Positions 2,946 through 21,827 of a DNA stretch of 64,000 bases are shown here, one piece after another (position 1 is the first letter of the stretch; every line of letters starts with the position of its first letter). The stretch comes from Acidobacteriota bacterium (GTDB lineage Bacteria; Acidobacteriota; UBA6911): contig DATJPG010000042.1 of NCBI GenBank assembly GCA_035506515.1, positions 11,235 to 75,234 on the forward strand. The letters run 5' to 3'. The position numbers were made by a program, and so were the translations under genes. A model generated the notes under the pieces. The model had not been told where the DNA came from, did no database searches, and worked only from the letters and a program-made list of their open reading frames with translations.

Positions 2946-2946
2946 G

Positions 2947-3435: not shown

Positions 3436-3438
3436 GGC

Positions 3439-5253
3439 CTATCTCCCACAGGCCAATGCCTGCAATGGATCCAGCCGGCAAATGCGGTCATAGATCTTTT
3501 GTTTCAGCTCGGCACTTGCCTCGGCTTTCGTGAGACATTGATACAAAAGGCAGAAAGGTTGCGCCACCATCGTCGGCGATTCCCACCCTTCCAGTCCACG
3601 GCTGTCGATCTCGGCCGTGATCTGTTCGAGGATCGGGTGCGCGATGTGATCATACCCCATCGAGATGCACAACTGTGCCAGTTGCAGCCGTCTCTGGAAT
3701 CGTCCGCGGCCGCTCTTTTCGGCAGCAGCCTCGCGCATCAAAATTTCAATAGCCTCCTGCGACCGTCCGGCCCGGGCGGCTTCCATGGCGAGATCGTTGG
3801 CGTCCGGGGTTCCGGATGTATCCTGGTTCGCAGAACCGGGTTCTTCTACAGTCGGGGCGTAGGAATATGCGGGTTGTTCTGCCGCCGGTGCCGACGGCGC
3901 GATTTCATCCAGCCATGCCTGGGTTTCCGGATTAGCCGCAGGCGTGTCGTCTAGCAGCGAAGCCTGGCGCAAGCCTGGATAGTCCGCGAGCAGCGCGTTT
4001 ACTTCGGCGCGAATGACGGCCTGGATCTGGTAATAGCCGAGCTCGTAAGCTGCGCGATATACATAGCGCTGCAAATCGAGCCAGCCTCTCCCGCACGGCG
4101 TGCCCATGGCCGTTTCGGCAATTTCGATTACCTGCTGCCATTCCCCGTCATTCGCCGCTTTCTTGAGCGCCTGGCGGGTTTCTGTTGGCGGGGCCTCGAG
4201 CAGGTTCGCGTCCAGATCCGATCCGGCGCTGCGCAATTCGCCAAAACGCAATCCGCGCAGCAGAAGATACGGCGTTACGCAGTATGCATCCTCACGTCTC
4301 AGAAAGGCCGCGACACTGACGATCCGGCGGTATGCGTCGTCCTTATCCTGGGGTTCCGGAGCGAGAGCGCCTGTCGCCGGGCGCGGCTTTGGCCGCGCGG
4401 CTGCTGCGGGTTCTTCCTGGGAGGGGTATTCTTCCTGCGCGACTTCTTCTTCGGGAACTTCGGCCTGTGCTGCCGCCTCATCGGGCTCCTTCTCTCTCTT
4501 CTTCTGCAGGAGACCGTGCACCGTGTGGCGAATTTCTTCAAGCGTGGTTCGCATGGGACCGAAGGACGGTGCTTCATCCGCAAACTTTTCCGAGCATATG
4601 CCGGACAGCGTTTCCAGGGCTTCAAGAATGCCGTCGATCGTCGCTTCCAGGTTGACGTAATAGGCCTTGGGGGATGCGTTGAAAGCTTTGTCCCAGTCCT
4701 CGCCCGTCTTTTTCCCATCGGCGATGGCAACCGCGCGGGCTTCCTGCTTTGTGGAATCGTCCGCGGCATCCGCTTCGTACCCGACGGCGCGCGCTTCTTT
4801 GAACTGATACCAGCTGATGCCCGTCTTCGTGATCGGCAGGCTGCGCAGCGTGGCGTCCATGCGCATTCCCAGCCAGTCCAGGGGAGCGGCGCGGATTTCG
4901 AGATCGCCTTCGTCCAATTCCGGGTACAGACCGTCCCAGAAATTCCCGATCAAACCGATGATCAGGTCGAGGCCTGCGCGCAGGCCGGAGAAAGATTCGG
5001 TTTTGATCAGCGCTTCCGTCAGCCAGACGGCAATCTGCAGATCCTTGCTTTTCGCTGCAAGAACATCGCCCGCAAGCTTTATGACCGTAGCGTAGTCCGC
5101 GGCTTTTCGCTCGTACTGCCAATCGCCCTGCGGAGCGGCGTCGTCCTCGCGTCGGGCCTCCTTGATTTTATCGTACACTGCGGCATAGCGCAGGCTTTCA
5201 CCGCAGGGATTGTCTCCCGGGATTGGATTCAGCAGATCGTCTCTGATAGGCAT
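3439..5253 (-). CDS. tssA: Type VI secretion protein TssA (ImpA N-terminal domain)
   Basis: 604 aa. The N-terminus PIRDDLLNPIPGDNPCGESLRYAAVYDKIKEARREDD matches the ImpA_N signature. Acidic and Pro/Ala-rich linkers are as in long-form TssA. Confidence 0.8.
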   Translation of the reverse strand: MPIRDDLLNPIPGDNPCGESLRYAAVYDKIKEARREDDAAPQGDWQYERKAADYATVIKLAGDVLAAKSKDLQIAVWLTEALIKTESFSGLRAGLDLIIGLIGNFWDGLYPELDEGDLEIRAAPLDWLGMRMDATLRSLPITKTGISWYQFKEARAVGYEADAADDSTKQEARAVAIADGKKTGEDWDKAFNASPKAYYVNLEATIDGILEALETLSGICSEKFADEAPSFGPMRTTLEEIRHTVHGLLQKKREKEPDEAAAQAEVPEEEVAQEEYPSQEEPAAAARPKPRPATGALAPEPQDKDDAYRRIVSVAAFLRREDAYCVTPYLLLRGLRFGELRSAGSDLDANLLEAPPTETRQALKKAANDGEWQQVIEIAETAMGTPCGRGWLDLQRYVYRAAYELGYYQIQAVIRAEVNALLADYPGLRQASLLDDTPAANPETQAWLDEIAPSAPAAEQPAYSYAPTVEEPGSANQDTSGTPDANDLAMEAARAGRSQEAIEILMREAAAEKSGRGRFQRRLQLAQLCISMGYDHIAHPILEQITAEIDSRGLEGWESPTMVAQPFCLLYQCLTKAEASAELKQKIYDRICRLDPLQALACGR

Positions 5254-5271
5254 CAGTGTGGAAAAGAGCCT

Positions 5272-5988
5272 TTATTCGGCCGCCGCCTCGACGGCGACGG
5301 GGAACTCCAGCGTTCTTACCTCCAAAATTGGTAACTCCTCGCCATCGACCAGCAACATTTTTTGACCCGCAGGTACTTGGGTGCCATCCATTTCCTCCCA
5401 AACCGTCTGCCGGCCAAGCCGCACGGTGTTGTCTGAGTGCCGGAAAGCGAAGGGGGTCAACGCGGGAATCATGACTTCGCCCAGGTCGAGGCCGCCGCAT
5501 TTGGGACCCGTTTTTAGCACGGCAGGAACCCAAATCAGGTCGCGCACGCGCTTCGGGGCTTCCATACGGATCGATTCGATATGCGCCAAAGGCAGCCATA
5601 AATAGGATCCCGCCGCATATACTTCCAGACGAGGGCCGATGCGCGGGTCGGCATCCTCGACGGCATCGCAAGCGATACCGTTGACGATGGCTTTCGTGAC
5701 AGGCTCGGCGGTTGTTTGCGGAAAAGTCTTTTTGTCGAACATTTCACGGCGCAAGCGCTCCGCCTGAAACGCCGAACGATAGATGAGCGTCCCCATGCCC
5801 GCTTCCTTGCTGATGTCGGATAAAATATCGAGCTGTTTTTCAGCACGGTCCAAGTCACCTGCAAAACAGAGCAGTTCAAACAAGAATGTTCGACGGCGTA
5901 CATCCGTCGGATCGTTGCGCAAATCGGCGGCCAAGACTTGTAGGGCTTCCTCTATTTTCCCAGCCTGGAAGAGTTCTTTGGCGTTCAT
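5272..5988 (-). CDS. tagJ: T6SS accessory protein TagJ (ImpE/SciE family, TPR-like)
   Basis: Begins MNAKELFQAGKIEEALQVLAADLRNDP, typical of ImpE. The start is taken at the internal Met with an AAAGGCGGG RBS; the ORF track extends to 6045. It lies between hcp and tssA. Confidence 0.7.
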   Translation of the reverse strand: MNAKELFQAGKIEEALQVLAADLRNDPTDVRRRTFLFELLCFAGDLDRAEKQLDILSDISKEAGMGTLIYRSAFQAERLRREMFDKKTFPQTTAEPVTKAIVNGIACDAVEDADPRIGPRLEVYAAGSYLWLPLAHIESIRMEAPKRVRDLIWVPAVLKTGPKCGGLDLGEVMIPALTPFAFRHSDNTVRLGRQTVWEEMDGTQVPAGQKMLLVDGEELPILEVRTLEFPVAVEAAAE

Positions 5989-6111
5989 GACCAAACCCGC
6001 CTTTCGCCTGCTGCACTTATAAGGGATAGCCCGTGGCGCTTGCACACCAATGCACTTGCGCCACAGGCAAAAAGCACTGCCAGCATCGAAAATGACATGC
6101 AGAAACGGTTG

Positions 6112-6600
6112 TTACACGGCCTTATTCTGTTTTAAATCGTAGCCGGCTTTAACGGCGCCGTCGAGAGTGCCATCCGCTTTCTGCGCTTTGTACTCGTACT
6201 CGATTTTTGCAAAGTTTAACGAGATTTGATCGGTTGGAACGATGCCCGATCCTCCGGAACCGCCAGTTTGAAAAGAGGAGACAAGGCAATCGGTAAATTT
6301 CATTTTTAAAAATTCCTGCTGCTCCTTGCCCGCTTTTCGACAGACCAAAACAGCTTCCTTGATATGTTCCCCGTTCGCGCACGCCAGGAGGAGTTTTGGG
6401 CTCGCCTTGTTCACCTGCATGATAAAGCTGAAATCCTGCATTGACACTTTGCCGGACCCACCGCCGCCGCCCGACGCAAAGCTTCCATGCTGAGTTTCGC
6501 CCCAGGACCACGATTCAACATCTATCTCGCCTTTGTGTTTGCTGTCCGAGCTTTCACCCTCAATCCCGTCAAGCTTTAAAAAAAAGTCCACAGCAGCCAT
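6112..6600 (-). CDS. hcp: Hcp (TssD) T6SS inner tube protein
   Basis: 162 aa. MAAVDFFLKLDGIEGESSDSKHKGEIDVESWSWG is the canonical Hcp1 N-terminus. Strong AAAGGAGA RBS. It lies directly downstream of tssBC. Confidence 0.93.
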   Translation of the reverse strand: MAAVDFFLKLDGIEGESSDSKHKGEIDVESWSWGETQHGSFASGGGGGSGKVSMQDFSFIMQVNKASPKLLLACANGEHIKEAVLVCRKAGKEQQEFLKMKFTDCLVSSFQTGGSGGSGIVPTDQISLNFAKIEYEYKAQKADGTLDGAVKAGYDLKQNKAV

Positions 6601-6668: not shown

Positions 6669-8156
6669 CTACTTACGAGCCGAGGCGGGCAATTCCGCCA
6701 CCAGGCGAAGCGATACCGTCAGTTCATCGAGCTGGAAATGCGGCCGGAGGAATGCCACCGCGCGATAGGCACCTGCCTTGCCGGGAACTTCCATAACCTC
6801 AATTCTGGCGTCTCTCAACGGATACTGAGCTTTGGTCGCAGCCGTAGCCGTGTCGTCGGGAGTCACGTAATTGGTAATCCACTTATTCAGCCAACGTTCG
6901 CATTCCGTGCGGGACGTAAAGCTGCCGATTTTGTCGCGCATCATGGCCTTTAGATAATGAGCAAAGCGGCAAACGGCCATGATGTAGGGCAACTGCCCTG
7001 CAAGACGAGCGTTGGCGTTGGCAGCATCGCTATCGTACAGCTTCGGTTTGTTGCAGGACTGCACGCTGAAAAACGCCGCGTAATCCGTGCCCTTGCAGTG
7101 CACCAGTGGAGCAAAGCCGGCATCGGCGAGTTCCTTTTCGCGACGGTCCGTAATGGGCGATTCCGTGGGACACTTCATCGCGACGTCGCCCGAATCCGTA
7201 TAGAAATTGTGGACCGGGAGTCCTTCGACCAGACCGCCGCCTTCTACGCCCCGGATTGCGGCGCACCAGCCGTAGAGAGCAAACGCCTTGGTCATGCGGG
7301 AGGCCAGCGCATACGCTGCATTCCCCCACAGATACTTGCCGTGATCTTCACCGCCGACATGTTCTTCGAATCCGAAGCCTTCTACCTGTTTCGTCTCCTT
7401 GCCGTAAGGCAGGCGCATCAGGATGCGCGGGCAGGTGAGGGCAACGTACCGCGAGTCCTCGGATGCCCGGAAAGACTTCCATTTTGCGTATTCGGTCGTA
7501 TCAAATACTTTGCCCATGTCGCGCGGCGCATCCAATTGTGTGAAGCTGTCCAGGTTGAACATTTCCGGTGAGGCAGCCGACAGGAATGGAGCGTGCGCGG
7601 CCGCCGCTACGTTGGATATTTTTTCCAGCAGCTCGATGTCCTCCGGTCCCCGGCCGAATTCGTAGTCGCCCACGATGCCGGCAAAAGGCGCCCCGCCGAA
7701 TATTCCGAATTCTTCTTCGTAAACCTTTTTGAACAACGCGCTCTGATCGAATTCCGGCGCCCGCTGCAGGTCGCGCAACAATTCCCTCTTGGAAACGTTC
7801 AGGATCTTGATCTTAAGATTTGCACTGGTTTCGCTCTGATCCATCAGGTACTTCAATCCGCGCCAGGAGCCTTCCAGTTTTTGAAACTGCTCCTGGTGGA
7901 GAATTTCGTTGAGCTGGATGGAAATGAGGTGATCGATCTGAGCGATGCGGGCGTTAATCATAGCCTCCGCATCTTTGGACACCGTCATGGCCCCCTCAAG
8001 AACCTGGCTCACGAATTCGGAGACCAGGTTTTTGCCGCGCTCGCGGCCGGCGACGTCCTTGGCAAATCGGCCTTCCTCAACGATCTGATCGAGCACACTC
8101 CTCTCGACGACTTGTTCCGCAGGAGCGGCTTTGGATTTTTTCTGCTCAGCGCTCAT
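6669..8156 (-). CDS. tssC: T6SS contractile sheath large subunit TssC (VipB/ImpC)
   Basis: 495 aa with typical TssC length and motifs. Its ATGA start overlaps the tssB stop. GGAGGAG RBS. Confidence 0.92.
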   Translation of the reverse strand: MSAEQKKSKAAPAEQVVERSVLDQIVEEGRFAKDVAGRERGKNLVSEFVSQVLEGAMTVSKDAEAMINARIAQIDHLISIQLNEILHQEQFQKLEGSWRGLKYLMDQSETSANLKIKILNVSKRELLRDLQRAPEFDQSALFKKVYEEEFGIFGGAPFAGIVGDYEFGRGPEDIELLEKISNVAAAAHAPFLSAASPEMFNLDSFTQLDAPRDMGKVFDTTEYAKWKSFRASEDSRYVALTCPRILMRLPYGKETKQVEGFGFEEHVGGEDHGKYLWGNAAYALASRMTKAFALYGWCAAIRGVEGGGLVEGLPVHNFYTDSGDVAMKCPTESPITDRREKELADAGFAPLVHCKGTDYAAFFSVQSCNKPKLYDSDAANANARLAGQLPYIMAVCRFAHYLKAMMRDKIGSFTSRTECERWLNKWITNYVTPDDTATAATKAQYPLRDARIEVMEVPGKAGAYRAVAFLRPHFQLDELTVSLRLVAELPASARK

Positions 8157-9124: not shown

Positions 9125-10480
9125 ATGAACCAACTCCAGCCGGTGATATGGACGAAGGGCACGCTTCTCGGTCCTCAACATCTCCAGACGCAAGACCGGT
9201 TTATCGAGAGCTCACTCCAATTTCGGGTACAGTCCCTGATATCGAATCCGTGGGGTTTTTTGAAGCTGCAGGTGAAGCAGGAAGCGCTTGCGGCAGGGGA
9301 ATTTGCCCTTTCGGAAGCATCGGGAATCTTTCCTGACGGGCTCCTGTTCGATTTTCCGGCATCGGAACAGGCTCCTCCCTCGATCCCGTTAGGTGATGCT
9401 TTCGGGCCCGACCAGAATTCTGTGGATCTTTACCTGGCGATTCCCAACTACCGCCAAGCCGGCCTGAACGTTTCCATCGCTCAGCAAAAAGCGGATACGC
9501 GGTATTTGGCCGATGTGGTTTCGGTACGCGATGAAAACTCCGGGAAGGCAGAAAAGCCCGTGCAGGTGGCGCGCAAAAACTTCCGGTTCCTGACCGCAAG
9601 CGACTCGCGCCAGGAATGTTCGGCTATGTGCGTGGCCCGCGTCTGCAAGAGCGATGCCGGCGTTCTGCAGTTGGATCCGCAATACGTTCCCCCGTTGCTG
9701 GATTTTGCTGCGAGCGACTATCTATGCGCCATCGCCCGGCGCCTGGTCGAAATTCTGGCCGCCAAGAGCAGTATTCTCGCCGGAGTGCGGCGGCAGAAAA
9801 ATCTCAGCCTGGCGGATTTCGGAACCGCGGACATCGCACAGTTCTGGTTGCTGTACACGGTCAACAGCCACTTCCCCGAATTCAATCATCTGTTCGAGAC
9901 ACGCCACGGTCACCCGGAACGCCTGTATGCAGCCATGCTCTCTCTGGCTGGCTGCCTGACGACCTTTTCGCCCAAAGTCAGTCCGCGCGATCTGCCTGCC
10001 TACGTGCACGATGATCTCTCCGGCTGTTTTGGATCCCTGGATGAAACCGTGCGGACCCTTCTGGAGACGGTGGTCCCGAGCAACTTCGTCTCGCTTCCTC
10101 TCAAGCTGGTTCAGCCGTCGATTTACGCGACCGCACTGGCCGAGGACAAATATCTTTCGGGAACCCGCCTGTATCTCGCCGTCTCCGCGGACATGAACCA
10201 GGCAGACCTGATCTCGAAGGTGCCCTACCTGGTGAAGGTATGCTCGGGGAACCACATCGAACACCTCGTGCGCCAGGCCTTGCCCGGTGCAGCGTTGACG
10301 CACGTGGCGAAGCCGCCCGGCGCCATCCCGGTAAAGCTGAATCATCAATATTTCAGCATCAATCAATCCGGGGTAGCCTGGGAAGCGGTTGTCAGAGCGC
10401 GGAATCTTGCGGTTTATGTTCCCGGGGATTTTCCCTCTCCCCAGCTGGAGCTCATCGTTTTATTGCCTGAGGCGGTTTGA
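9125..10480 (+). CDS. tssK: T6SS baseplate protein TssK (ImpJ/VasE), copy 1
   Basis: 451 aa. The N-terminus VIWTKGTLLGPQHLQTQDRF is a TssK hallmark. It is divergent from the tssB operon across an AT-rich 440-bp intergenic region. Confidence 0.88.
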   Translation: MNQLQPVIWTKGTLLGPQHLQTQDRFIESSLQFRVQSLISNPWGFLKLQVKQEALAAGEFALSEASGIFPDGLLFDFPASEQAPPSIPLGDAFGPDQNSVDLYLAIPNYRQAGLNVSIAQQKADTRYLADVVSVRDENSGKAEKPVQVARKNFRFLTASDSRQECSAMCVARVCKSDAGVLQLDPQYVPPLLDFAASDYLCAIARRLVEILAAKSSILAGVRRQKNLSLADFGTADIAQFWLLYTVNSHFPEFNHLFETRHGHPERLYAAMLSLAGCLTTFSPKVSPRDLPAYVHDDLSGCFGSLDETVRTLLETVVPSNFVSLPLKLVQPSIYATALAEDKYLSGTRLYLAVSADMNQADLISKVPYLVKVCSGNHIEHLVRQALPGAALTHVAKPPGAIPVKLNHQYFSINQSGVAWEAVVRARNLAVYVPGDFPSPQLELIVLLPEAV

Positions 10481-11981
10481 ACCGCTCAATTTCAATAAAG
10501 CCCCCGGACACCATCGACGCAGCGGCGCGTGCGAATTCGCCCGGCGGCGTGGCTCCCGGCAGGACATCATTCCGAATTAGCGTCGTCAACGCTTCACGCC
10601 CTGTGATTTTTCCATCGCATAAGGAAATCAGATGCGCCATCCAGGGCTGAATATTGCATTCCATATTAAAAGGGTATTGTGTCTGCAGCTTGTAGGATGA
10701 AGGATTCCAGCAGCCCTTTTCCAGACGATGCATCACAAGAAACTCCGTCTGCGGCGAGGCGTGCAAGGGAGAATCCAGGATAATCCGCTCCAGGTCGTCG
10801 CTGCACGATACGGATTCCCATTTCAATAGCCACTCCCATGGAGATCGCGAGGCGGAAGGAGAGGCTTGGCGCCGGACCGTGAAGATCCTGTGCGTTCCTG
10901 ATCTCTTCTGGATACAGATGAAACCATAGACAAGGGCGGTGATTCCCAGGTTATTAAACAACTGGCGCCACAGCTCGGATTCTTCTCGAGAGCGCATCGT
11001 TTCCCTGTTCTGGCGCTGTGCAAACTCCTGAGGTTCATACTCCCGGCGGGACAGGAACGCGATATCGAAATCCTTCTCTCTGGCGCCGAGCCAATCCCGG
11101 ACACGGTGTTCAAACGATCGTTCTCTACGATCGGTTCCCATCGTGAGCGCCAGGAATCTGCCTCCCTCCTTCAGATGATCGGGCAGCCCTGCCACGATCC
11201 GGCGGGTTATTTCTTCTCCGTCGCTTCCGCCGCTGTAGAAAATCCACTTAGGCTGGAGAGTCGGAACATAGGGCGGGTGGGCGGAGATGAAATCGAATCG
11301 GCAGTTTTCAAATCCTTGATACAGGTCGCTCGTCACAACCTTCACGTTGGAAATGCCATTCAGTTGCCGGTTAAATTCCGCAAATTGGGTGGAGCGGTCT
11401 GCGATGTCGCCAGACCACGCGTGCTGCGCGCTCCCTTTGGCGGCAAGCAAAGCCGCGATCCCCGTGCCCCCGCAAAGGTCGAGAAATTCTCCGCGCGGCT
11501 GTTCGGGCAAGTGGCGGAGGAACAGGCGGGTGTTGGGAAGAAAAGCCGGAAACACGATATCTTCCGCCACCGGCATCGAGGTGCCGTCGTATGTATTCCA
11601 CCGGTCGGAGGCGATGTACAGATCGCCCACAGGATACAGGGCGATGGTGGCATGGTATGCATCAGAGTCGGCGTCCCATCGAAGCAATCCCATACCCTCA
11701 AGAACCGCAATCATTCCGGCATCGAAGAATTCCCGCAGGGTATTCGAATGAACGATTTCGCCTGCCAGAAAAAGGGTTGTAAGAGCATCGGCTGCAGATT
11801 CACAGGCCGGCAGCGGAGGGCGCTGCTTCCGGTCTATCTCGAAGTCTTCGGCGTGTTCGAGGCGAAATCGTCTGCACAAAAACTCGTCGCTGTAATCCAT
11901 CGCTCGCAGAAAATCCCGCAATTCGCAGAACTGCCCCGTCTTCCCTAAAGCTCCTGCGTCGATGACAGAAGGGTACATCAC
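10452..11981 (-). CDS. SAM-dependent amino-methyltransferase, HemK/PrmC-like (LDLCGGTGIAAL motif I; DFISAHPPY motif IV) with an N-terminal extra domain of about 150 aa
   Basis: 509 aa. Motif I and an (N/D/H)PPY-type motif IV are spaced as in protein-glutamine and N6-adenine methyltransferases. It is 6 nt downstream of the repeat-protein gene (coupled). Its 3' end overlaps the tssK copy-1 3' end convergently. Confidence 0.7.
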   Translation of the reverse strand: MMYPSVIDAGALGKTGQFCELRDFLRAMDYSDEFLCRRFRLEHAEDFEIDRKQRPPLPACESAADALTTLFLAGEIVHSNTLREFFDAGMIAVLEGMGLLRWDADSDAYHATIALYPVGDLYIASDRWNTYDGTSMPVAEDIVFPAFLPNTRLFLRHLPEQPRGEFLDLCGGTGIAALLAAKGSAQHAWSGDIADRSTQFAEFNRQLNGISNVKVVTSDLYQGFENCRFDFISAHPPYVPTLQPKWIFYSGGSDGEEITRRIVAGLPDHLKEGGRFLALTMGTDRRERSFEHRVRDWLGAREKDFDIAFLSRREYEPQEFAQRQNRETMRSREESELWRQLFNNLGITALVYGFICIQKRSGTHRIFTVRRQASPSASRSPWEWLLKWESVSCSDDLERIILDSPLHASPQTEFLVMHRLEKGCWNPSSYKLQTQYPFNMECNIQPWMAHLISLCDGKITGREALTTLIRNDVLPGATPPGEFARAAASMVSGGFIEIERFKPPQAIKR

Positions 11982-11987
11982 TCTTCC

Positions 11988-13424
11988 TCACTTCCTCGCT
12001 GTAACCACGATAATGGCGATCACGGCCAGAAGAACCAGGATGACGATGATCAGCACTGGAATCATTTTCGAAGGTTGTTTCGCGGGTACGGGCGTTTCCT
12101 GCATTCGGGTCGGGGCCGGAACCGGCTCTGTTGCCAGTTCCTGCGGGAGCGACTGAGCGCTGAACATGCGCGTGTATTCGCCGGGAGCGCTTGCTGCCGG
12201 CGAAGCCGGGCTTGATTCTGCCAGCGGCGCTACGGGGCCCAGCGGAGGAATTTCAGCCGATGAATCGCCGAAGATCTTCGTAAATTCGCCGGCCGCCGGT
12301 GCAAAGGACTGAGGTGGCTTGGATGCGTGGATAGTTTCGCTCTGCTTGGGTGCAGATGCGGAAGATGGCTGGCCGAAGATTCCGGTAAAGGAAGTGGGCG
12401 GAACTGTCGCCCGGTCACCGCTGCCGAAGACGCGCGCGAATTCTCCCTGAGATTCAGGCTTTTGAGGCATAGGCGCCGGTGTAGGAGCCGGAGAGGATGC
12501 CGCGCTGAAAAATCGCGTGAACTCTCCCGGTCCTGATTGCGCCTGCTTAGGCGGCACAGGCGGCGTTGAAGCTTTCGACCCCTGGGGCACAGATTCCCCT
12601 ATGGGAGCGGCGGCCGCCTCAAACACTTGCGTGAATGATCCCGGCGCAGACGGGGCTGGGGTCGGGGCCGGTTGAGGCGTCGGAGGTTTTAATGCTCCGG
12701 GCGCAGGTTCGCCGATTGGAGCGGCGGCAGCCTGGAACATTTGGGTGAAGGATCCCGGCGCAGATGGAGCCGGGGCCGGGGCCGGCTGAGGCGTCGGAGG
12801 CTTTGATGCTTCGGGCGCAGGTTCGCCGATTGGAGCGGGGGCAGCCTGGAACATTTGAGTAAACGATCCCGGCCTAGATTCAACCGGGGGCGGTGCAGGA
12901 GCGATTGGCAATTCGGCCGCAGGCTCACCGATCGGGGCCGCAGGAGCTTGAAACATTTGCGTAAAAGAACCGGCCGCGCTGTGCGCGGGTGTTTGTTCCT
13001 CGGCATGCATGTCCACAGCACCGGATTCCCTCGATACCTTCGGGGATCCTGCCGGCGCGGATTTGAGTTCGGCGGGAACGTGCCACACGCCGGCTTTCGT
13101 AAACTCCCCCGGTTTGTGAGCCGGCGCTTCCGACGCCGCGGCATGGAATCGCGACAGGCGGGTTTTGAGTTCCGCAAGATTGCCGACCGGTTCTGTCACA
13201 ACATAGATTGTTCCGCGATTATCGCCGGTATCAATCAGTTCCGGAAACTGCGCTCGGTCGACTTCCCGCAGCTTGGCGAGAAAATCTTGCTGAGCGTGGG
13301 CTTGCTCACCCACGAAGAGAAACACGGTGACTTTTTTCCCGGTTGCAATTTCCTTGGCGACGAATGTCTTGGCGCCGTCCTCCCCGGCAAGCTCGAGAAG
13401 CTGATATCTTTCGTCGAAACTCAT
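11988..13424 (-). CDS. Tail-anchored membrane protein with a degenerate kinase N-lobe-like N-terminal domain, about 9 Pro/Ala-rich repeats (GSFTQMFQ / GEFTxxF) and a C-terminal TM helix
   Basis: The start is taken at the Met with a GGAG RBS; the ORF track extends to 13475. The N-terminus YQLLELAGEDGAKTFVAKEIATGKKVTV aligns by eye to the kinase glycine-loop/VAIK region of the nearby STK, but the catalytic Lys is missing. Residues about 120-450 are low-complexity repeats. The C-terminus MIPVLIIVILVLLAVIAIIVVTARK is a single TM span. Confidence 0.6.
   Translation of the reverse strand: MSFDERYQLLELAGEDGAKTFVAKEIATGKKVTVFLFVGEQAHAQQDFLAKLREVDRAQFPELIDTGDNRGTIYVVTEPVGNLAELKTRLSRFHAAASEAPAHKPGEFTKAGVWHVPAELKSAPAGSPKVSRESGAVDMHAEEQTPAHSAAGSFTQMFQAPAAPIGEPAAELPIAPAPPPVESRPGSFTQMFQAAPAPIGEPAPEASKPPTPQPAPAPAPSAPGSFTQMFQAAAAPIGEPAPGALKPPTPQPAPTPAPSAPGSFTQVFEAAAAPIGESVPQGSKASTPPVPPKQAQSGPGEFTRFFSAASSPAPTPAPMPQKPESQGEFARVFGSGDRATVPPTSFTGIFGQPSSASAPKQSETIHASKPPQSFAPAAGEFTKIFGDSSAEIPPLGPVAPLAESSPASPAASAPGEYTRMFSAQSLPQELATEPVPAPTRMQETPVPAKQPSKMIPVLIIVILVLLAVIAIIVVTARK
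12125..13115. repeat. Intragenic tandem repeat array of about 114-bp period (about 9 units; the central units are near-identical)
   Basis: Near-identical DNA units are visible, for example around 12640-12760 versus 12755-12875, each encoding GSFTQMFQAAAAPIGEPAP...PTPQPAP. Confidence 0.75.
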
Positions 13425-13622
13425 AGTTTTGGCTCCGTTTTGCCTCATCATGTCACATCGGCAATTGCCGATCAATAAGAGGAGGCTTTTAGAGAATAGA
13501 ACCGTGCCTAGTGCGTGTATAATAGACTGGCATCCCGCGGGCGCTCTGGAGTAATCTCAATAGCGCACCAGGGAAAATTTTTACGACCGCGGTTTCGTCA
13601 CCATACCGAGCGGAAAAAGATC

Positions 13623-14975
13623 ATGAAGCACCTGTCGAGAGTTGTATGGTCCGAAGGCATGTACCTGGCTCCGCATCATTTTCAGGTGCAGAGCCGGTAT
13701 TTCGAAGATTCCATTCAATTCGCCGCTTCGGCGCTTTGTTTTGCCCCGTACGGATTTGTCGGCTTCGGATTGGATGTCGAGGCTCTGCGCAACGGTACGC
13801 TGTCCCTTCTGCATGCTCGCGGAATTCTTCCCGACGGGCTGTCGTTTCAAATGCCCGACTGCGATGCCCTGCCGGCGGCGCGAAACATCGCCGATCTGTT
13901 TCCCCCGACGCGAGACAAAGTCACGGTGCTGCTTGCAATTCCCGAGCACAAATGGAATGGGGTCAATTGCGCGCAGTCCGCAGACGATAGCGGCTGGGTG
14001 CGTTACAGCGCCGAGTCTCAAACGATACCGGACGAAACCACGGGCCGCGACGAAAAGCCGGTTCCACTGGGCCGGAAAAATTTTTCTCTGCTGCTCGACA
14101 CCGAAGCGCAGGAAGGCATTCTGGCGTTGCCGGTGGCCGTTATCATGCGGGATGGGACGGGGCATTTCATTTTCGATCCCGATTTCATACCGCCTCTGAC
14201 GAGCATCGCTGCAAGCGATCGTCTGATGAGCGTCCTCAAGCGCCTCATTGAAATCCTGGATGACAAGAGCGCGAGCCTTTCCAAAGGCAGCGCGGCGGCG
14301 GCGCGCACCTGGGCCGAGTATTCCACGCGCGATGTCGCACAGTTCTGGCTGCTGCACACGGTCAATTCCGCCCTTGCGCCGTTGCGCGATATGTATGCGG
14401 GACGTCACGTGCACCCGGAGCAACTGTTCGTTCAGATGCTTCGCCTTGCCGGCGCGCTGTGCACCTTCTCGATCGATTCGCACCCGCGCGATCTGCCGCT
14501 CTACAATCACAGCAACCTGGCCGGATGCTTCGGCACGCTGGATCAGCACATCCGCACAAACCTGGAGACGGTTGTGCCGACCAACGTGATCTCGGTACCG
14601 CTGCAGAAATCCGCCGATTATTTCTATGAAGGTCCGATCACGGATCAACGGTGTCTCGATCGCGCGCGCTGGATTCTGGAAATCCGCAGCTCCACCGGCG
14701 AGGTGGAGATCATTGCCAAAGCGCCCCAGTTGGTGAAAATCTGCTCCAAGCTATTTGTCCCTAAACTGGTCGAAAGAGCCTTGCCCGGCATGGGCCTGAC
14801 CCATTTGCCCACTCCGCCTACCGCCATATCCGCACGGGTGGATGCCCAATACTTCAGCATCAATCGTGCCGGCCCATGCTGGGAGCACATTGTGCAAACA
14901 CGGCAGGTGGGAATCTACGTCCCCGGGGAGTTGCCGAATCCCGAACTTGAGCTGTTGATCATCCTCGAATCCTGA
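13623..14975 (+). CDS. tssK: T6SS baseplate protein TssK (ImpJ/VasE), copy 2
   Basis: From the internal Met, MKHLSRVVWSEGMYLAPHHFQVQSRYFED is the TssK N-terminal signature; the ORF track starts at 13515. It is about 40% identical by eye to copy 1. It is followed at 16 nt by tssL. Confidence 0.85.
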   Translation: MKHLSRVVWSEGMYLAPHHFQVQSRYFEDSIQFAASALCFAPYGFVGFGLDVEALRNGTLSLLHARGILPDGLSFQMPDCDALPAARNIADLFPPTRDKVTVLLAIPEHKWNGVNCAQSADDSGWVRYSAESQTIPDETTGRDEKPVPLGRKNFSLLLDTEAQEGILALPVAVIMRDGTGHFIFDPDFIPPLTSIAASDRLMSVLKRLIEILDDKSASLSKGSAAAARTWAEYSTRDVAQFWLLHTVNSALAPLRDMYAGRHVHPEQLFVQMLRLAGALCTFSIDSHPRDLPLYNHSNLAGCFGTLDQHIRTNLETVVPTNVISVPLQKSADYFYEGPITDQRCLDRARWILEIRSSTGEVEIIAKAPQLVKICSKLFVPKLVERALPGMGLTHLPTPPTAISARVDAQYFSINRAGPCWEHIVQTRQVGIYVPGELPNPELELLIILES

Positions 14976-14990
14976 TAAGGAGACTCAGAC

Positions 14991-15704
14991 ATGATATCCA
15001 ATCCCGGTTCTCCGGCTTTGCTCCGGCGACACGAGAACCTCGCGCTTGTCTTTCAAGAAATCCTGGTCGGGAGTGAGCGTCTGCGCACCGGCCGCCAGAC
15101 AGTATCCGATCCTGCCGTTTTCAGGCAGCAGGTGATTGACGCACTCAAGACAGCGGACCAGCAGGCTCGCAACCAGGGGTATGCCGCCGAGGACATCAAG
15201 CAGGCCATTTTTGCGGTCGTGGCATTTGTGGATGAATCCGTTCTGAATCTGCGCCTGCCTGTTTTTGCCGATTGGCCTCGAAGGCCTCTGCAGGAGGAAT
15301 TGTTCGGGCATCACATAGCCGGCGAGATATTTTTCAAAAATCTGCAGGAGCTTTTGGGGAAAAACGATTCGCAGGATCTTGCCGACCTCCTGGAAGTATA
15401 TCTGACGTGCCTGTTGCTCGGTTTTGCGGGCCGCTACAGCCTGGGAGAGCGCGGCGAATTGAGGGCGATCACAAACGCCACGAATGAAAAGATTCAACGG
15501 ATTCGCGGGGGTGCATCGCCGCTGTCTCCGGCGTGGGAGCTTCCGCCGGAAGCTCCGCAAAAAACGGGAACGGATCCGCTGGTCCGTAAGATCGGGATTG
15601 CTGCCGCAGCCTGTTTCGGATTGGCGTTGATTCTTTTTATCGTGTACAAGCTGGTTCTCGATTCGGGCTTATCCAGCCTGGGCGAGCTGGCGGGAAAGCT
15701 ATAG
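14991..15704 (+). CDS. tssL: T6SS membrane complex protein TssL (DotU/ImpK family)
   Basis: 237 aa with a DotU-like cytoplasmic domain and a C-terminal TM helix (IGIAAAACFGLALILFIVY). It lies directly upstream of tssM. Confidence 0.85.
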   Translation: MISNPGSPALLRRHENLALVFQEILVGSERLRTGRQTVSDPAVFRQQVIDALKTADQQARNQGYAAEDIKQAIFAVVAFVDESVLNLRLPVFADWPRRPLQEELFGHHIAGEIFFKNLQELLGKNDSQDLADLLEVYLTCLLLGFAGRYSLGERGELRAITNATNEKIQRIRGGASPLSPAWELPPEAPQKTGTDPLVRKIGIAAAACFGLALILFIVYKLVLDSGLSSLGELAGKL

Positions 15705-15716
15705 GGAGATGCCGCT

Positions 15717-18700
15717 ATGATGATCTATCTGGGAGCAGGCGCTGCGCTGGTCGGGTATCTGATTATAGCCTGGATTGTGGGGAGCTTGTTGCACCTGGAC
15801 AGTTCGCGATTCAACACGCTATTTGCCATCCTCACCGTGCTTGGCATTTCTGCCACCGCCGCCTTCCTCTGGTTCTGGAAAAAATCGCACGCGAACGCTT
15901 CCGCCGAGGGGAGCCAGGGCACAGGCCCCATGGGGAAGGATGACGAAATCGATGCGCTTGTGCGCGAAGCGGAAAACCGTTTGGCAGCGTCGAACCTGGC
16001 AAAAGGCGCGAAGCTGAATAATCTGCCTCTGGTTTTTGTGATCGGGGATGCGGGATCGACGAAGACCAGCACGATCCTTCATTCCGGGCTCGACCCGGAA
16101 CTGCTGGCCGGAAGCGTATACCAGGATACGACCGTCGTGCCGACGCGCCTCGCCAATATCTGGTTCGCGCGCGGCATGATTTTCGTGGAGGCCGGGGGGA
16201 AACTGCTGGCCGAGCCTCAACGCTGGAAGCATCTGCTGCAGCGGCTGCGCCCGGCAAGGCTCCTTTCCGCCATGCGGGGAGAACAGGCGCCGCGCGCCGC
16301 GATCGTGTGCCTAGATGCCGAGACTTTCGTCCGCGCCGGGGCGGCGGACGCTCTGACAATGGCGTCCAGAAACCTGCAGAAACGGCTCTCCGAGCTTTCG
16401 GAAGAATTCGGCATCAGCTTCCCCGTCTATGTGCTGTTTACCAAAATGAACCGGCTGGCGTTTTTCGAGGACTTTGTGCGCGACCTGACGGCGGATGAAG
16501 CCGGACACGTGCTCGGGGCAACGGTCCCGCTGCCCGCGCGCGAGGGCGGCGTCTACGCGGAAGAAGAAGGAAAACGGCTGAGCGCCGCGTTCGACGCAAT
16601 ATTCTATTCGCTGGCGGACCACCGCGTCCTGTTCCTGCCGCGGGAAAACGATTTACAGAAAGTTCCAAACGCATACGAGTTCCCGCGCGAGTTCCGCAAG
16701 TTGCGCAACGGCCTTGTACAGTTCCTCGTGGACGTATGCCGGCCAAGCCAGCTGCGCGCCAGCCCTTTTTTGAGAGGATTTTATTTTTCCGGCGTTCGCC
16801 CCATTCTCGTGCAGGATGCTCCCGTGGCGACGCCGCGTCCGTCCGCCGCGCAACGGTCCCCATTTGAAGCGGCGGGAAGCGCGACGGGATTTTTCCAGAC
16901 CGGGGCGGCTCCTGCGGCCCCTGCTCCAATCGCGGCGGCCGCGGGAGGCACGCGCAAGGTGCCGCAGTGGCTGTTTTTAAGCCACCTTTTCGCGGACGTG
17001 ATTCTGCGCGACAAGGCGGCTCTGAGCGCCAGCGGCAGCAGCACCAAAGCGAGCACGCTGCAGCGAATCCTGCTGGCATCGGCGGCGGCGCTATTCCTGA
17101 TCTTCGCCGTAGGCTTCACCGTCTCGTTCTTCGGCAACCGCACGCTCGAAAACGAAGTGATGGAGGCGGCACGCGGAATTCCGCCGGGTGAGGCCGGAGG
17201 CATGAATCTGCCCACGCAGGATGCGCTGCAGAAGCTCGAAACGCTTCGGGCGTCGCTGGTCAAGCTGACCGCCTATGAGGAAGACGGCGCTCCCTTCAGG
17301 CTGCGATGGTTTCTATACGCCGGAACGGACCTGTATCCGGCGGTGCGCCAACTGTACTACACGCGGTTCAACCAGCTTCTGTTCCTTCAGACGCAGGGGA
17401 AAATGCTCGCGTCGCTGCGCATGCTTGCGATCCCGCCCGCGTCCACTGACGATTATGCAACAACCTATGACACGTTGAAGGCCTATCTGATCACGACGTC
17501 GGAATACAAGCGCAGCACAAAATGGCTTTCGCCGGTCCTGATAAACCGGTGGGCGGCCGGCCGCCAGGTCGACAGCATCCTGCCGTTGGCCACCAGACAA
17601 TTCGATTTCTTTGCGGAAGACCTCGTGCGCGGCAATCCGTTCGGGGATAAGAACGATTTCGCTGCCATCGACCGTGCGCGGCTTCATTTGTCCAAGTTTT
17701 CCGGAATCGAGCAGATCTACCAGTTCATGATCTCCGACGCTTCGCGTCGCGCAAAGAGCATCAACTTCAACGAACAGTATCCGGGTTCTGCGGATGTGGT
17801 GGTCAACAACGTCGAGATTCCGGGGGCATTTACCAGAGCGGGCTGGGCGGTCATGCAGGATAACATGGCCCGCGCGGATAAATTTTTCGGTGGCGAACGC
17901 TGGGTCCTGGGAGATTACGCCTCGGCAAAACCCGAAGCAGCCAAGGTGGAAGAAGAACTGCGCAACCGGTATGTTCTGGATTACATCGGCAAATGGCGCG
18001 ATTTCATGAACAACACGAAAGTCGTGCGCTTCGCCGGATTGAAGGACGCTGTCAAAAAGCTCAATACGCTTTCCGGCGCACAAACCCCCCTGATGGCGCT
18101 TTTCTGGGTAGCCACTCAGAACACGGCCGTGAGCTCACAAAAACTGACGGATATTTTCGACTCCGTCCAAAAGGTGGTACCGCCTCCGGCGACTACGGTG
18201 CAATACGTGTGGCCGACGAACCAGGAATACATGGGATCGCTGGCTTCTCTGCAAACGGCCGTCAGCCAGGTGGCCGAGACGGCTGCGACTCCGGGACCAC
18301 CGGATCCCAACCGCGGCCTGCCTGTGCGGCAAAGCGCGGATAACGCCCGAAATGTCCTCAAGAAGCTCGAGTACACATTTAAGATCGATCCGGAATCGCA
18401 CATGGAAACGGTGACATCCAAGCTCCTGGAGGCTCCGATCGATTACGCCGACGCGCTTACCAAAGGCATGGGTGCCGGCGAAATCAACAACAAAGCCGCT
18501 GTCTTTTGCAGGTCTTTCGCGACAATTACGAACAAGTTTCCCTTCAATCCGTCAGCCACGGCCGAAGTTACGCTTCAGGAGCTGAATGGCATGTTCCGCC
18601 CGCACGAAGGGAAATTGTGGACCTTTTACAACGAAACGCTCCAGCCCCTGATGACAAAACAGGGGCCGAGGTATGAAGCGAATTCCACTAGCGGCATCAA

Positions 18701-19196
18701 GCTGACAAAGACCTTCCTCGACTTCTTTAACGCGGCGGCCCGCTTCTCCGAAGCAGTGTATCCCAACGGTGCTAAGGACCCGAGTTTTCATTATTCACTG
18801 GCGGCACAACGCGCCGATCAGATCCGGGAAATGACTGTGACGATAGACGGACAGACGACTCGGGGAACCGGTTCCAAGGAACACACATGGACTGCATCGC
18901 CCTCGCAGGACGTGCAGATCAGCGCGAAACTTTCCGGGGGATCGGATTTCGAATTTCAGAACCGGCAGGGAATGTGGGCCCTGTTCCGTTTCTTCGCCGA
19001 CGCCGACCGCTCAACCCAGATCGGCAATGCGAATTCTCTCGAGTGGATCGTGCGGCAAGGCAGAGAAGGCCGTCCCGTGTCGGTCGGCGGCAAGGAATTG
19101 ACCTACCGCTTTATCGTAGACACGGGCGGCGCCGAAGCCATCTACCAGAAAAACTTTCTCATCAGCATGCGCTGCGTTTCCTCGGCCGCGCAGTGA
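15717..19196 (+). CDS. tssM: T6SS membrane complex protein TssM (IcmF/ImpL/VasK)
   Basis: 1159 aa with N-terminal TM helices, a Walker-A-like VIGDAGSTKTS and IcmF-family length. It is 13 nt after tssL. Confidence 0.9.
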   Translation: MMIYLGAGAALVGYLIIAWIVGSLLHLDSSRFNTLFAILTVLGISATAAFLWFWKKSHANASAEGSQGTGPMGKDDEIDALVREAENRLAASNLAKGAKLNNLPLVFVIGDAGSTKTSTILHSGLDPELLAGSVYQDTTVVPTRLANIWFARGMIFVEAGGKLLAEPQRWKHLLQRLRPARLLSAMRGEQAPRAAIVCLDAETFVRAGAADALTMASRNLQKRLSELSEEFGISFPVYVLFTKMNRLAFFEDFVRDLTADEAGHVLGATVPLPAREGGVYAEEEGKRLSAAFDAIFYSLADHRVLFLPRENDLQKVPNAYEFPREFRKLRNGLVQFLVDVCRPSQLRASPFLRGFYFSGVRPILVQDAPVATPRPSAAQRSPFEAAGSATGFFQTGAAPAAPAPIAAAAGGTRKVPQWLFLSHLFADVILRDKAALSASGSSTKASTLQRILLASAAALFLIFAVGFTVSFFGNRTLENEVMEAARGIPPGEAGGMNLPTQDALQKLETLRASLVKLTAYEEDGAPFRLRWFLYAGTDLYPAVRQLYYTRFNQLLFLQTQGKMLASLRMLAIPPASTDDYATTYDTLKAYLITTSEYKRSTKWLSPVLINRWAAGRQVDSILPLATRQFDFFAEDLVRGNPFGDKNDFAAIDRARLHLSKFSGIEQIYQFMISDASRRAKSINFNEQYPGSADVVVNNVEIPGAFTRAGWAVMQDNMARADKFFGGERWVLGDYASAKPEAAKVEEELRNRYVLDYIGKWRDFMNNTKVVRFAGLKDAVKKLNTLSGAQTPLMALFWVATQNTAVSSQKLTDIFDSVQKVVPPPATTVQYVWPTNQEYMGSLASLQTAVSQVAETAATPGPPDPNRGLPVRQSADNARNVLKKLEYTFKIDPESHMETVTSKLLEAPIDYADALTKGMGAGEINNKAAVFCRSFATITNKFPFNPSATAEVTLQELNGMFRPHEGKLWTFYNETLQPLMTKQGPRYEANSTSGIKLTKTFLDFFNAAARFSEAVYPNGAKDPSFHYSLAAQRADQIREMTVTIDGQTTRGTGSKEHTWTASPSQDVQISAKLSGGSDFEFQNRQGMWALFRFFADADRSTQIGNANSLEWIVRQGREGRPVSVGGKELTYRFIVDTGGAEAIYQKNFLISMRCVSSAAQ

Positions 19197-21816: not shown

Positions 21817-21827
21817 GCGGGGGGCGG

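What the first reader, a model, noticed from the sequence alone, without database searches (positions are those of the whole stretch)
9125..14975. Duplicated, divergent tssK paralogs within one T6SS cluster
Two full-length TssK genes (9125-10480 and 13623-14975) are about 40% identical by eye. Both keep the N-terminal shoulder signature W..G..L.PQHFQ. They are arranged divergently around the inserted methyltransferase/repeat module. Copy 2 heads the tssK-tssL-tssM operon. Copy 1 stands alone, opposite the tssB operon promoter region. TssK connects the baseplate to the TssLM membrane complex. Two paralogs could mean a heteromeric baseplate, alternative docking modes, or a fossil of cluster fusion.
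Basis: seen in the sequence. Interest (0 to 1): 0.55.

Follow-up and report, generated by a model that had tools for sequence, protein, structure and literature searches.

The report
Paired TssK paralogs in one T6SS
One type VI secretion gene cluster of a soil Acidobacterium carries two intact, anciently diverged copies of the baseplate protein TssK, a pairing kept across two bacterial phyla, and it may show how the two non-equivalent TssK positions in each baseplate wedge differ in function.

Summary
Two full-length TssK genes (9125-10480 and 13623-14975) are 41% identical, and both score far above the curated TssK cut-offs. One detail is wrong: both genes lie on the + strand, so they are not divergent. 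The layout is K1→ ←methyltransferase ←repeat protein K2→tssL→tssM.

The pair is not a pseudogene, a recent duplicate or a fusion relic. Orthologues of each copy form separate clades in Acidobacteriota (Bryobacterales and Granulicella) and in Gemmatimonadota. Both evolve under strong purifying selection (dN/dS 0.02-0.12 where dS is unsaturated). Each is the other's closest relative among TssK families.

Gene linkage is strict. K2 is followed directly by tssL in 99 of 99 loci. K1 never is (0 of 75); it stays with the sheath and baseplate genes when the cluster is split.

Four of the eight fixed differences between the clades lie in the first 20 residues, the segment that grips TssG. One is an invariant Lys11 (K1) versus Glu11 (K2).

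Best reading, which is inferred and not shown: the paralogues have specialised for the two non-equivalent TssK trimer sites of each wedge. This would be a new variant of a known system. I found no description of it in the searched literature.

The parts
9125..10480 (+). tssK1, the K1 paralogue (451 aa). It is monocistronic and divergent from tssB. Its N-terminus is derived (VIW-x-K-G, with invariant Lys11).
   Evidence: Pfam and NCBIfam match over the full length. PDB TssK 5y0e 194 bits, 5m30 185 bits, and the head domain 5m2y E 2e-10. Orthologues are 63-94% identical in more than 560 genome contigs. Lys11 is present in 82/82.
13623..14975 (+). tssK2, the K2 paralogue (450 aa) and first gene of tssK2-tssL-tssM. 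Its N-terminus is canonical (VVWSEG, Glu11).
   Evidence: An exact public match exists, P0271, annotated as TssK. K2 is directly followed by tssL in 63/63 and 36/36 loci. The AF2 head domain matches 5m2y at TM 0.81.
10452..11981 (-). HemK/MTS-like SAM methyltransferase (509 aa), inserted between the paralogues and convergent with K1.
   Evidence: Pfam PF05175 E 4e-13. NCBIfam HemK/PrmC-like hits fall below the cut-offs. It is syntenic in many relatives but is not obligatory.
11988..13475 (-). Repeat-rich membrane-anchored protein with G(S/E)FTxxF repeats and a C-terminal TM helix. It matches no known family. The likely true start is the ATG near 13452.
   Evidence: Translation. No Pfam or NCBIfam hit. 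A 114-bp tandem repeat lies at 12585-12873.
14991..15704 (+). tssL (DotU)
   Evidence: PF09850 E 2e-47
15717..19196 (+). tssM (IcmF)
   Evidence: PF06761, PF14331, PF21070 and PF06744
8153..8752 (-). tssB, divergent from K1 across the 372-bp intergenic region 8753-9124.
   Evidence: PF05591 E 2e-60
6669..8156 (-). tssC
   Evidence: PF05943 and PF18945
103..1146 (-). tssG, the wedge adaptor whose two loops each hold one TssK trimer. Loop 1 is at about aa 223-257 (acidic, ...VVGDEIWDQ). Loop 2 is at about aa 313-341 (...RLGWMTW...).
   Evidence: PF06996. Alignment to EAEC TssG 6giy_C, with L243 and V249 aligned to the anchor residues L236 and M242. Loop comparison.
1110..6600 (-). tssF (1110-2945), tssE (2947-3435), tssA (3439-5253), tagJ/impE (5272-6045) and hcp (6112-6600). 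All are single-copy.
   Evidence: Pfam. No paralogues in the window.
19244..23456 (+). Accessory genes downstream of tssM: a PKMT-like methyltransferase (19244-20710), a CsgG-like lipoprotein (20824-21816) and a Ser/Thr kinase (21828-23456).
   Evidence: Pfam

Best explanation
Shown: tssK1 and tssK2 are an old, co-inherited pair of functional TssK paralogues belonging to one T6SS. The pair defines a T6SS lineage found in Acidobacteriota and Gemmatimonadota.

Inferred origin: the tssK gene of an ancestral tssB<-|->(tssJ)-tssK-tssL-tssM layout, as still seen in Ralstonia and Paraburkholderia, was duplicated. K2 kept the ancestral place and the canonical N-terminus. K1 became a separate transcription unit that stays with the sheath and baseplate genes.

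Inferred mechanism: in the solved E. coli wedge, one TssG carries two non-equivalent TssK homotrimers, on loop 1 (apex) and loop 2 (periphery). I propose that here K1 trimers and K2 trimers each fill one of these two sites. My specific guess is K1 on the lineage-specific acidic loop 1 and K2 on the canonical loop 2. K2 would be the copy tuned to the TssL/TssM cytoplasmic domains with which it is always co-encoded.
For: Both copies are bona fide full-length TssK:
- Pfam, NCBIfam, PDB sequence matches and Foldseek hit TssK only.

The pair is conserved:
- 35 of 65 K1-anchored genome loci with at least 6 kb downstream carry K2-tssL-tssM on the same strand.
- The same architecture occurs on the Granulicella tundricola plasmid, the Gemmatirosa plasmid with the copies 30 kb apart, and a Gemmatimonadaceae MAG.

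The clades are distinct and related to each other:
- K1 200/200, K2 189/200, K1+K2 against outgroups 168/200.
- With 108 representatives of a 1.84-billion-protein library, the K1+K2 superclade is recovered 58/100 exactly and 85/100 loosely.

Both copies are constrained and evolve together:
- dN/dS is 0.02-0.12 for both copies in unsaturated pairs.
- The distance matrices of K1 and K2 correlate at r 0.97-0.98, the highest of any pair involving K1.

Linkage is strict:
- K2 is followed directly by tssL in 99/99 loci, and K1 in 0/75.
- In split clusters K1 ends the sheath/baseplate block and housekeeping genes follow.

Fixed differences concentrate at the TssG-binding end:
- 8 sites are at least 90% conserved within each clade but differ between clades.
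- 4 of them lie in residues 1-20 (Fisher p 0.009 among doubly conserved columns).
- These include Lys11 (82/82 in K1) versus Glu11 (37/37 in K2, and E or D in 8/9 outgroups).
- The N-terminal 15 residues of the TssK trimer form the cavity that receives TssG loop 1 or loop 2, and each wedge holds two non-equivalent trimers (PMC6300606).

TssG differs in this lineage:
- Loop 1 carries G-D-E-[IV]-W in 26/31 sequences. Single-tssK Ralstonia, Paraburkholderia, Rhizobium and Pseudoalteromonas have GAR, GTR, GAR and GKQ at that place.
- The loop 2 motif xLGWx[TS]W is shared with the single-tssK systems.
Against: - No interaction data exist, and no multimer model could be run.
- The loop assignment rests on a charge-complementarity argument that does not hold universally. 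E. coli TssG loop 1 also has G-D after the anchor Met242 while its TssK is acidic at the matching place.
- Monomer AF2 models were mediocre (pLDDT 56 for K1 and 72 for K2), and the N-termini were unmodelled.
- About half of the K1 loci show no K2 within 10 kb (30 of 65). About two thirds of the K2 loci show no K1 within 7-10 kb upstream (19 of 30). Genome-level co-occurrence is therefore proven only for the complete replicons and long contigs examined.
- Partial correlations linking K2 to TssL (0.47) and K1 to TssM or TssG are unstable at n = 14-23.
- Trees are neighbour-joining only.
Confidence: 0.42

Rival explanations
1. Alternative baseplates. K1 and K2 are interchangeable homotrimers, and each can fill both TssG sites. 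They would be used under different conditions or for different cargo or docking modes. K1 has its own promoter, while K2 is made with TssLM.
For: The two are separate transcription units: K1 is monocistronic and K2 is operonic. Both keep all three TssK domains. The cluster carries kinase and methyltransferase genes that could switch states.
Against: Invariant, clade-specific N-terminal differences have persisted across two phyla. Evolution is tightly correlated and both copies are under equal purifying selection. No lineage was seen that had lost one copy while keeping the cluster contiguous. TssG loop 1 has itself changed in this lineage.
Confidence: 0.2
2. K1 has left the canonical baseplate role. 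It would be a TssK-fold adaptor that docks lineage-specific accessory proteins or cargo (methyltransferases, the repeat membrane protein, the TssB-TssC-like fusion) onto the machine. K2 alone would be the structural TssK.
For: K1 has the derived N-terminus, with Lys11 instead of the near-universal Glu/Asp. It is flanked by variable accessory genes. K2 holds the ancestral tssK position before tssL.
Against: K1 is more conserved than K2 (mean identity 0.67 vs 0.60; head domain 0.68 vs 0.59). It scores slightly higher than K2 against solved and proteobacterial TssKs (194 vs 176 bits; 248 vs 219 bits). The accessory genes are absent from the Granulicella cluster, which still keeps K1.
Confidence: 0.15
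3. K1 and K2 co-assemble into mixed heterotrimers (2:1 or 1:2). These would give asymmetric trimers suited to the asymmetric TssG loops.
For: The neck (trimerisation helices) is the most similar region between the copies, at 46% against 37-38% elsewhere. The two copies co-evolve strongly.
Against: The genes are transcribed separately and are sometimes 30 kb apart. No test of interface compatibility was possible. All solved TssKs are homotrimers.
Confidence: 0.1
4. Relic of a fusion of two T6SS clusters, a horizontally acquired second tssK, or a decaying duplicate.
For: Some relatives carry an extra TssB-TssC-like ORF near the K2-L-M block. That could hint at remnants of a second system.
Against: K1 and K2 are each other's closest relatives. 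Every other core gene is single-copy in the window. Both frames are intact with dN/dS of 0.12 or less where dS is unsaturated. The pair predates the split of Bryobacterales, Terriglobales and Gemmatimonadota, or else moved as a unit.
Confidence: 0.05

Closest known systems
EAEC Sci-1 T6SS baseplate wedge, TssK6-TssF2-TssG1(-TssE) (PDB 6N38, 6GIY; TssK 5M30, 5MWN, 5M2Y)
   Same: Both window proteins align over the shoulder, neck and head of E. coli TssK (E 1e-50 to 1e-53). The window TssG aligns to EAEC TssG, including two of the three loop 1 anchor residues. The wedge needs two TssK trimers in non-equivalent sites.
   Different: In E. coli one gene supplies both trimers. Here two paralogues, 41% identical and with fixed differences in the TssG-binding N-terminus, are available for the two sites.
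Single-tssK clusters of Ralstonia solanacearum and Paraburkholderia megaplasmids (tssB<-|->tssJ-tssK-tssL-tssM)
   Same: The overall layout is the same: vgrG-clpV-tssG-F-E-hcp-tssC-B on one strand, with a divergent tssK-tssL-tssM operon. They are the closest non-paired TssKs in the plasmid collection, at 32-34% identity.
   Different: They have one tssK preceded by tssJ, and TssG loop 1 carries G(A/T)RVWQR. The window cluster has two tssK genes, no recognisable tssJ, an acidic loop 1 (GDEIWDQ), and accessory genes inserted between the copies.
Granulicella tundricola MP5ACTX9 plasmid pACIX901 T6SS (WP_013572714.1 and WP_013572717.1) and the Gemmatirosa kalamazoonensis KBS708 plasmid 1 T6SS
   Same: They have the same K1/K2 architecture in cultured, fully sequenced strains. 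PGAP already annotates both Granulicella genes as tssK.
   Different: The filling between the copies differs: an amidohydrolase plus a hypothetical protein in Granulicella, and about 30 kb in Gemmatirosa. Identity to the window copies is only 44-54%.
Intra-cluster duplication of other T6SS core genes (two adjacent tssC genes in a Pseudoalteromonas H1-like cluster)
   Same: This is a precedent for paralogous structural subunits inside one T6SS cluster.
   Different: It concerns the sheath rather than the baseplate. I did not examine its conservation or divergence.
Siphophage receptor-binding-protein attachment (TP901-1, p2), the evolutionary relatives of the TssK shoulder
   Same: A trimeric shoulder domain plugs onto a baseplate adaptor loop. 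Park et al. draw this analogy.
   Different: This is an analogy only. No sequence or structure comparison with phage proteins was made here.

Membership tests
TssK (T6SS baseplate subunit; Pfam PF05936, NCBIfam TIGR03353) | Full-length match above the curated family thresholds | tested here: met
   K1: 455.8 bits (Pfam) and 418.8 bits (NCBIfam). K2: 427.1 and 386.2 bits. The cut-offs are 23.4 and 100, and profile coverage is 1-428/429.
TssK (T6SS baseplate subunit; Pfam PF05936, NCBIfam TIGR03353) | Three-domain architecture: N-terminal shoulder, helical neck and C-terminal head | tested here: met
   Both align to residues 1-445 of solved TssKs and separately to the head-only entry 5m2y (K1 E 2e-10, K2 E 6.5e-9). 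By Foldseek the only significant PDB hits are TssK, and the K2 head matches at TM 0.81. The K1 head is poorly modelled, with pLDDT below 50.
TssK (T6SS baseplate subunit; Pfam PF05936, NCBIfam TIGR03353) | Conserved N-terminal roughly 15-residue TssG-binding segment (W-x-E/D-G...PxHFQ) | tested here: inconclusive
   K2 keeps the canonical form (VVWSEGMYLAPHHFQ). K1 keeps the W, G, P and Q/H framework but has invariant Lys in place of Glu/Asp, and L in place of F at position 20. Whether K1 still binds TssG could not be tested.
TssK (T6SS baseplate subunit; Pfam PF05936, NCBIfam TIGR03353) | Encoded within a T6SS core gene cluster | tested here: met
   The window carries tssG, F, E, A, tagJ, hcp, tssC, B, K1, K2, L and M.
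TssK (T6SS baseplate subunit; Pfam PF05936, NCBIfam TIGR03353) | Homotrimer that binds TssG loops and the TssL/TssM cytoplasmic domains | not testable with these tools
   This needs a multimer prediction or biochemistry. Only weak co-evolution signals were obtained.
Canonical proteobacterial-type T6SS (T6SSi) with 13 core components | Presence of TssA, B, C, E, F, G, K, L, M, Hcp, VgrG, ClpV and TssJ | tested here: inconclusive
   Ten components are found in the window. clpV and vgrG lie beyond the window's left edge but are present next to tssG in relatives. No tssJ was recognised. A CsgG-like lipoprotein follows tssM.

The most novel reading that the evidence does not exclude
This T6SS lineage builds an obligately hetero-paralogous baseplate. 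K1 trimers and K2 trimers would occupy the inner (TssG loop 1) and outer (loop 2) positions of every wedge. One would be dedicated to wedge and sheath-side contacts and the other to docking on TssL/TssM. That would be a natural separation of two functions that a single TssK performs in all studied systems, and a handle on how the six-fold baseplate couples to the membrane complex.
Probability: 0.35. Interest if true: 0.7.

Novelty: new variant of a known kind. Interest (0 to 1): 0.55.

Why it matters
Every structural and genetic study of the T6SS baseplate uses systems with one TssK. The two non-equivalent trimers per wedge therefore cannot be manipulated separately. A widespread natural lineage with a distinct paralogue available for each site would allow that. 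It occurs in soil Acidobacteriota and Gemmatimonadota and includes cultured strains with complete genomes. Each position could be tagged, deleted or mutated on its own, to ask which trimer contacts TssL/TssM, which mediates wedge-wedge contacts, and how TssG discriminates between them. The finding also marks out a distinct, poorly studied T6SS subtype in abundant soil phyla. That subtype has paired TssK, no obvious TssJ, and conserved methyltransferase and repeat-protein accessories. It also warns annotators that 'two tssK' here is not an assembly or annotation artefact.

Tried and rejected
- Pseudogene or recent duplicate: rejected. Both frames are intact, both match the family over the full length, and dN/dS is low.
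- Xenologue or cluster fusion: rejected by the trees and by single-copy status of all other core genes.
- The methyltransferase/repeat module as an obligatory partner of the pair: rejected. The K1-K2 gap ranges from 147 bp (L068, directly tandem) to 30 kb, and its contents vary.
- Promoter and terminator scan of 8600-15100: no more hits than in shuffles, so uninformative.
- Monomer AlphaFold models: the N-termini, and the K1 head, had too low confidence to compare surfaces.
- Mirror-tree partial correlations to assign K1 or K2 to TssL, TssM or TssG: unstable at n = 14-23, so treated as inconclusive.
- Contig-length matching to find K2 in the genomes whose K1 locus lacks it: the 120-hit list reached down only to 63% identity, and no match was found.
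- Literature searches for duplicated or paired tssK, and for Acidobacteria T6SS: nothing describes the pair. Most hits were testis kinases named TSSK.

Full report
WHAT IS THERE

The left third of the window is one T6SS cluster.
- On the - strand lie tssG (103-1146), tssF, tssE, tssA, tagJ/impE, hcp, tssC and tssB (8153-8752).
- On the + strand lies a TssK gene at 9125-10480 (K1).
- On the - strand lie a HemK/MTS-like methyltransferase (10452-11981) and a repeat-rich, membrane-anchored protein that matches no family (11988-13475).
- On the + strand lie a second TssK gene at 13623-14975 (K2), tssL, tssM, a PKMT-like methyltransferase, a CsgG-like lipoprotein and a Ser/Thr kinase.

K1 and K2 are 41% identical over their whole length. 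Both cover the Pfam TssK model end to end, and both pass the NCBIfam TssK equivalog cut-off four-fold. Both align over shoulder, neck and head of the solved TssKs 5Y0E and 5M30, and both hit the head-only entry 5M2Y. No other T6SS core gene is duplicated in the window.

The statement that the copies are divergent is not: they are co-directional, and the inserted genes are on the opposite strand.

IS IT A ONE-OFF?

It is not. K1 has orthologues of 63-94% identity in more than 560 genome contigs. The 80 best hits were fetched with 10-kb flanks, and all are Acidobacteriota, mostly Bryobacterales.
- Of the 65 loci with at least 6 kb downstream of K1, 35 carry a K2 orthologue followed by tssL-tssM on the same strand.
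- The K1-K2 gap ranges from 147 bp (L068, directly tandem) to 6.5 kb. Its filling varies and often includes the methyltransferase and repeat-protein genes.
- In the remaining loci K1 is the last T6SS gene. One example reads tssF-tssG-clpV-vgrG-FHA/DUF4123-K1 followed by a histidine kinase. Another reads tssB|K1 followed by a sugar kinase and pheST. In these the cluster is split exactly between the two paralogues.

A reciprocal search anchored on K2 in metagenome contigs gave the same picture.
- K2 is directly followed by tssL in 63/63 loci there, and in 36/36 in the genome set.
- K1 is never directly followed by tssL (0/75).
- Among K2 loci with at least 7 kb upstream, 11 of 30 show K1.

The architecture is also present in cultured, completely sequenced strains.
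- Granulicella tundricola MP5ACTX9 plasmid pACIX901 has it, and PGAP already calls both genes tssK.
- Gemmatirosa kalamazoonensis plasmid 1, from a different phylum (Gemmatimonadota), has it with the copies 30 kb apart.
- A profile of divergent K1-like sequences retrieves many Gemmatimonadaceae proteins. One such MAG shows tssB ... | K1 | a 502-aa unknown ORF | K2-tssL-tssM.

EVOLUTION

In a neighbour-joining tree of 82 K1, 37 K2 and nine proteobacterial TssKs, support was as follows:
- K1 clade 200/200
- K2 clade 189/200
- K1+K2 against the outgroup 168/200

I searched K2 against a library of 1.84 billion representative proteins and added the 108 full-length sequences among the best 150 hits. 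K1 and K2 again formed a superclade that excluded 54 other TssK clusters. Recovery was 58/100 exact and 85/100 when allowing up to 5 wandering tips.

Mean identities are 0.67 within K1, 0.60 within K2, 0.40 between the clades, and 0.28-0.29 to the outgroups. dN/dS is 0.02-0.12 for both copies in pairs where dS is not saturated. The K1 and K2 pairwise-distance matrices correlate at r 0.97-0.98.

The nearest single-tssK clusters, in Ralstonia and Paraburkholderia, have the same global layout with tssJ-tssK-tssL-tssM divergent from tssB. The simplest history is a duplication of that tssK in the ancestor of this lineage. K2 kept the ancestral slot. A recombination and insertion hot spot then developed between the copies. 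A xenologous origin, a fusion relic and a decaying copy are all disfavoured.

WHERE THE COPIES DIFFER

Identity between K1 and K2 from the same locus is 0.38 in the shoulder, 0.46 in the neck and 0.37 in the head. Only eight columns are at least 90% conserved within each clade yet differ between them.
- Four lie in the first 20 residues: I8/V8, K11/E11, T13/M13 and L20/F20. Fisher p is 0.009 among doubly conserved columns.
- Lys11 is invariant in K1: 82/82 in the locus set, 114/114 recognisable motifs among the close database hits, and 114/115 among the Gemmatimonadota-type hits.
- Glu11 is invariant in K2 (37/37). It is Glu or Asp in 8 of 9 outgroup TssKs.

K2 thus has the canonical N-terminus and K1 a derived one. 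Overall, however, K1 is the slower-evolving copy and scores slightly higher against solved and proteobacterial TssKs.

WHY THE N-TERMINUS MATTERS

The cryo-EM structure of the E. coli TssK-TssF-TssG subcomplex shows two TssK trimers per wedge. One is anchored on TssG loop 1 at the apex and one on loop 2 at the periphery. Each loop pushes three hydrophobic residues into the cavity formed by the N-terminal 15 residues of a trimer, with polar contacts at the rim. The two trimers are tilted about 60 degrees to each other and touch each other (PMC6300606).

The window TssG aligns to the E. coli protein, with L243 and V249 at the positions of anchors L236 and M242.
- In TssGs of the paired-TssK lineage, the residues after the last loop 1 anchor are G-D-E-[IV]-W in 26/31 sequences, including Granulicella (GEE) and Gemmatirosa (GDE).
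- Four single-tssK relatives have GAR, GTR, GAR and GKQ there.
- The loop 2 motif xLGWx[TS]W is shared with the single-tssK systems.

MOST LIKELY MECHANISM (inference)

The two paralogues have subfunctionalised for the two non-equivalent TssK sites of each wedge. I guess that K1, with its Lys11 N-terminus, sits on the lineage-specific acidic loop 1. K2, with its canonical N-terminus, would sit on the canonical loop 2. K2 would also be the copy co-adapted to the TssL/TssM proteins with which it is invariably co-encoded.

The following steps are shown:
- both genes are real, intact and constrained
- they are co-inherited
- gene linkage is strict
- the fixed differences are enriched in the TssG-binding segment
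- TssG loop 1 is altered in this lineage

The following steps are not shown:
- any physical interaction
- stoichiometry
- which trimer sits where

The charge-swap argument is weak on its own. E. coli TssG also has Gly-Asp after Met242, although its TssK is acidic at the corresponding place. Monomer AlphaFold models did not resolve the N-termini, and multimers could not be run. I put this model at about 0.4. The rivals are alternative baseplates at 0.2, a non-canonical adaptor role for K1 at 0.15, heterotrimers at 0.1, and a relic or xenologue at 0.05.

COMPARISON WITH WHAT IS KNOWN

Both proteins are members of the TssK family by every sequence test available. Trimerisation and partner binding were not testable. 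The system works like a canonical T6SSi baseplate, but it differs from every characterised one in having two specialised TssK genes.

Full-text searches for duplicated, paired or paralogous tssK, and for Acidobacteria or Solibacter T6SS, returned no description of the pair. The only relevant mention is that Solibacter's T6SS is an outlier in TagJ/TssC/ClpV co-evolution (PMC4239648). The genes are already annotated as tssK in public genomes, so the sequences themselves are not new. What appears to be new is the recognition of a conserved, co-evolving K1/K2 pair with a differentiated TssG-binding end.

VERDICT

The feature is not an artefact or a relic. It is a conserved new variant of a known machine. 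It offers a concrete, testable structural hypothesis, and cultured organisms are available in which to test it. Interest is 0.55.

Noticed in passing
window 8753-9124 and 19244-21816: No tssJ is recognisable anywhere in the cluster. In the nearest single-tssK relatives tssJ sits just before tssK. A CsgG-like lipoprotein (20824-21816) lies downstream of tssM and could be the outer-membrane partner.
   Followed up: no
window 10452-11981 (-) and 19244-20710 (+); L176/L177 5175-6782 and 8304-9857: Two different SAM methyltransferases travel with this T6SS lineage in both Acidobacteriota and Gemmatimonadota. One is HemK/MTS-like and one is PKMT-like with a regulatory and a winged-helix domain. In L176 a SAM synthetase gene is adjacent. 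Their substrate is unknown. They are absent from the Granulicella cluster.
   Followed up: partly
window 11988-13475 (-); tandem repeat 12585-12873: This is a 495-aa protein with no family match. It has about nine G(S/E)FTxxF motifs in Pro/Ala-rich spacers, a 114-bp DNA tandem repeat, a C-terminal TM helix and an N-terminal region that resembles a kinase N-lobe by eye. An ORF of similar size and with no Pfam hit occupies the same slot between K1 and K2 in Gemmatimonadaceae (L176 11551-13059).
   Followed up: partly
L139 14694-16085; L176 6766-8220; also L054, L059, L064, L071, L074, L140, L142, L147, L149: Many relatives encode an extra protein of about 460-480 aa that joins a TssB (VipA)-like N-terminus to the TssC (VipB) N-terminal domain and lacks the gp25-like C-domain. 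It lies after tssM or upstream of K1. It is a second lineage-specific paralogue of a core part. It is absent from this window.
   Followed up: partly
L174 (Pseudoalteromonas sp. Bsw20308 plasmid) 29467-32520: Two adjacent genes are annotated tssC in one H1-like T6SS cluster. This is another case of a duplicated core structural gene within a cluster.
   Followed up: no
L027 and L028 (both from MAG MFD09603.bin.2.34): One MAG carries two separate K1 loci, each 68% identical to the window K1. Neither has K2 within 10 kb. This could mean two T6SS clusters or strain heterogeneity in the bin.
   Followed up: no
L001 13034-14400; L011 14520-16000: K2 appears in two frames or as fragments, and in the same loci tssC or tssM does too. 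These loci come from MAG assemblies. Assembly frameshifts look more likely than pseudogenes, but this was not checked.
   Followed up: no
window 12001-13000: This stretch shows a strong local GC-skew excursion (+0.17) and 62% GC. It coincides with the Pro/Ala-rich repeat gene on the - strand, so the cause is compositional and not a replication signal.
   Followed up: partly
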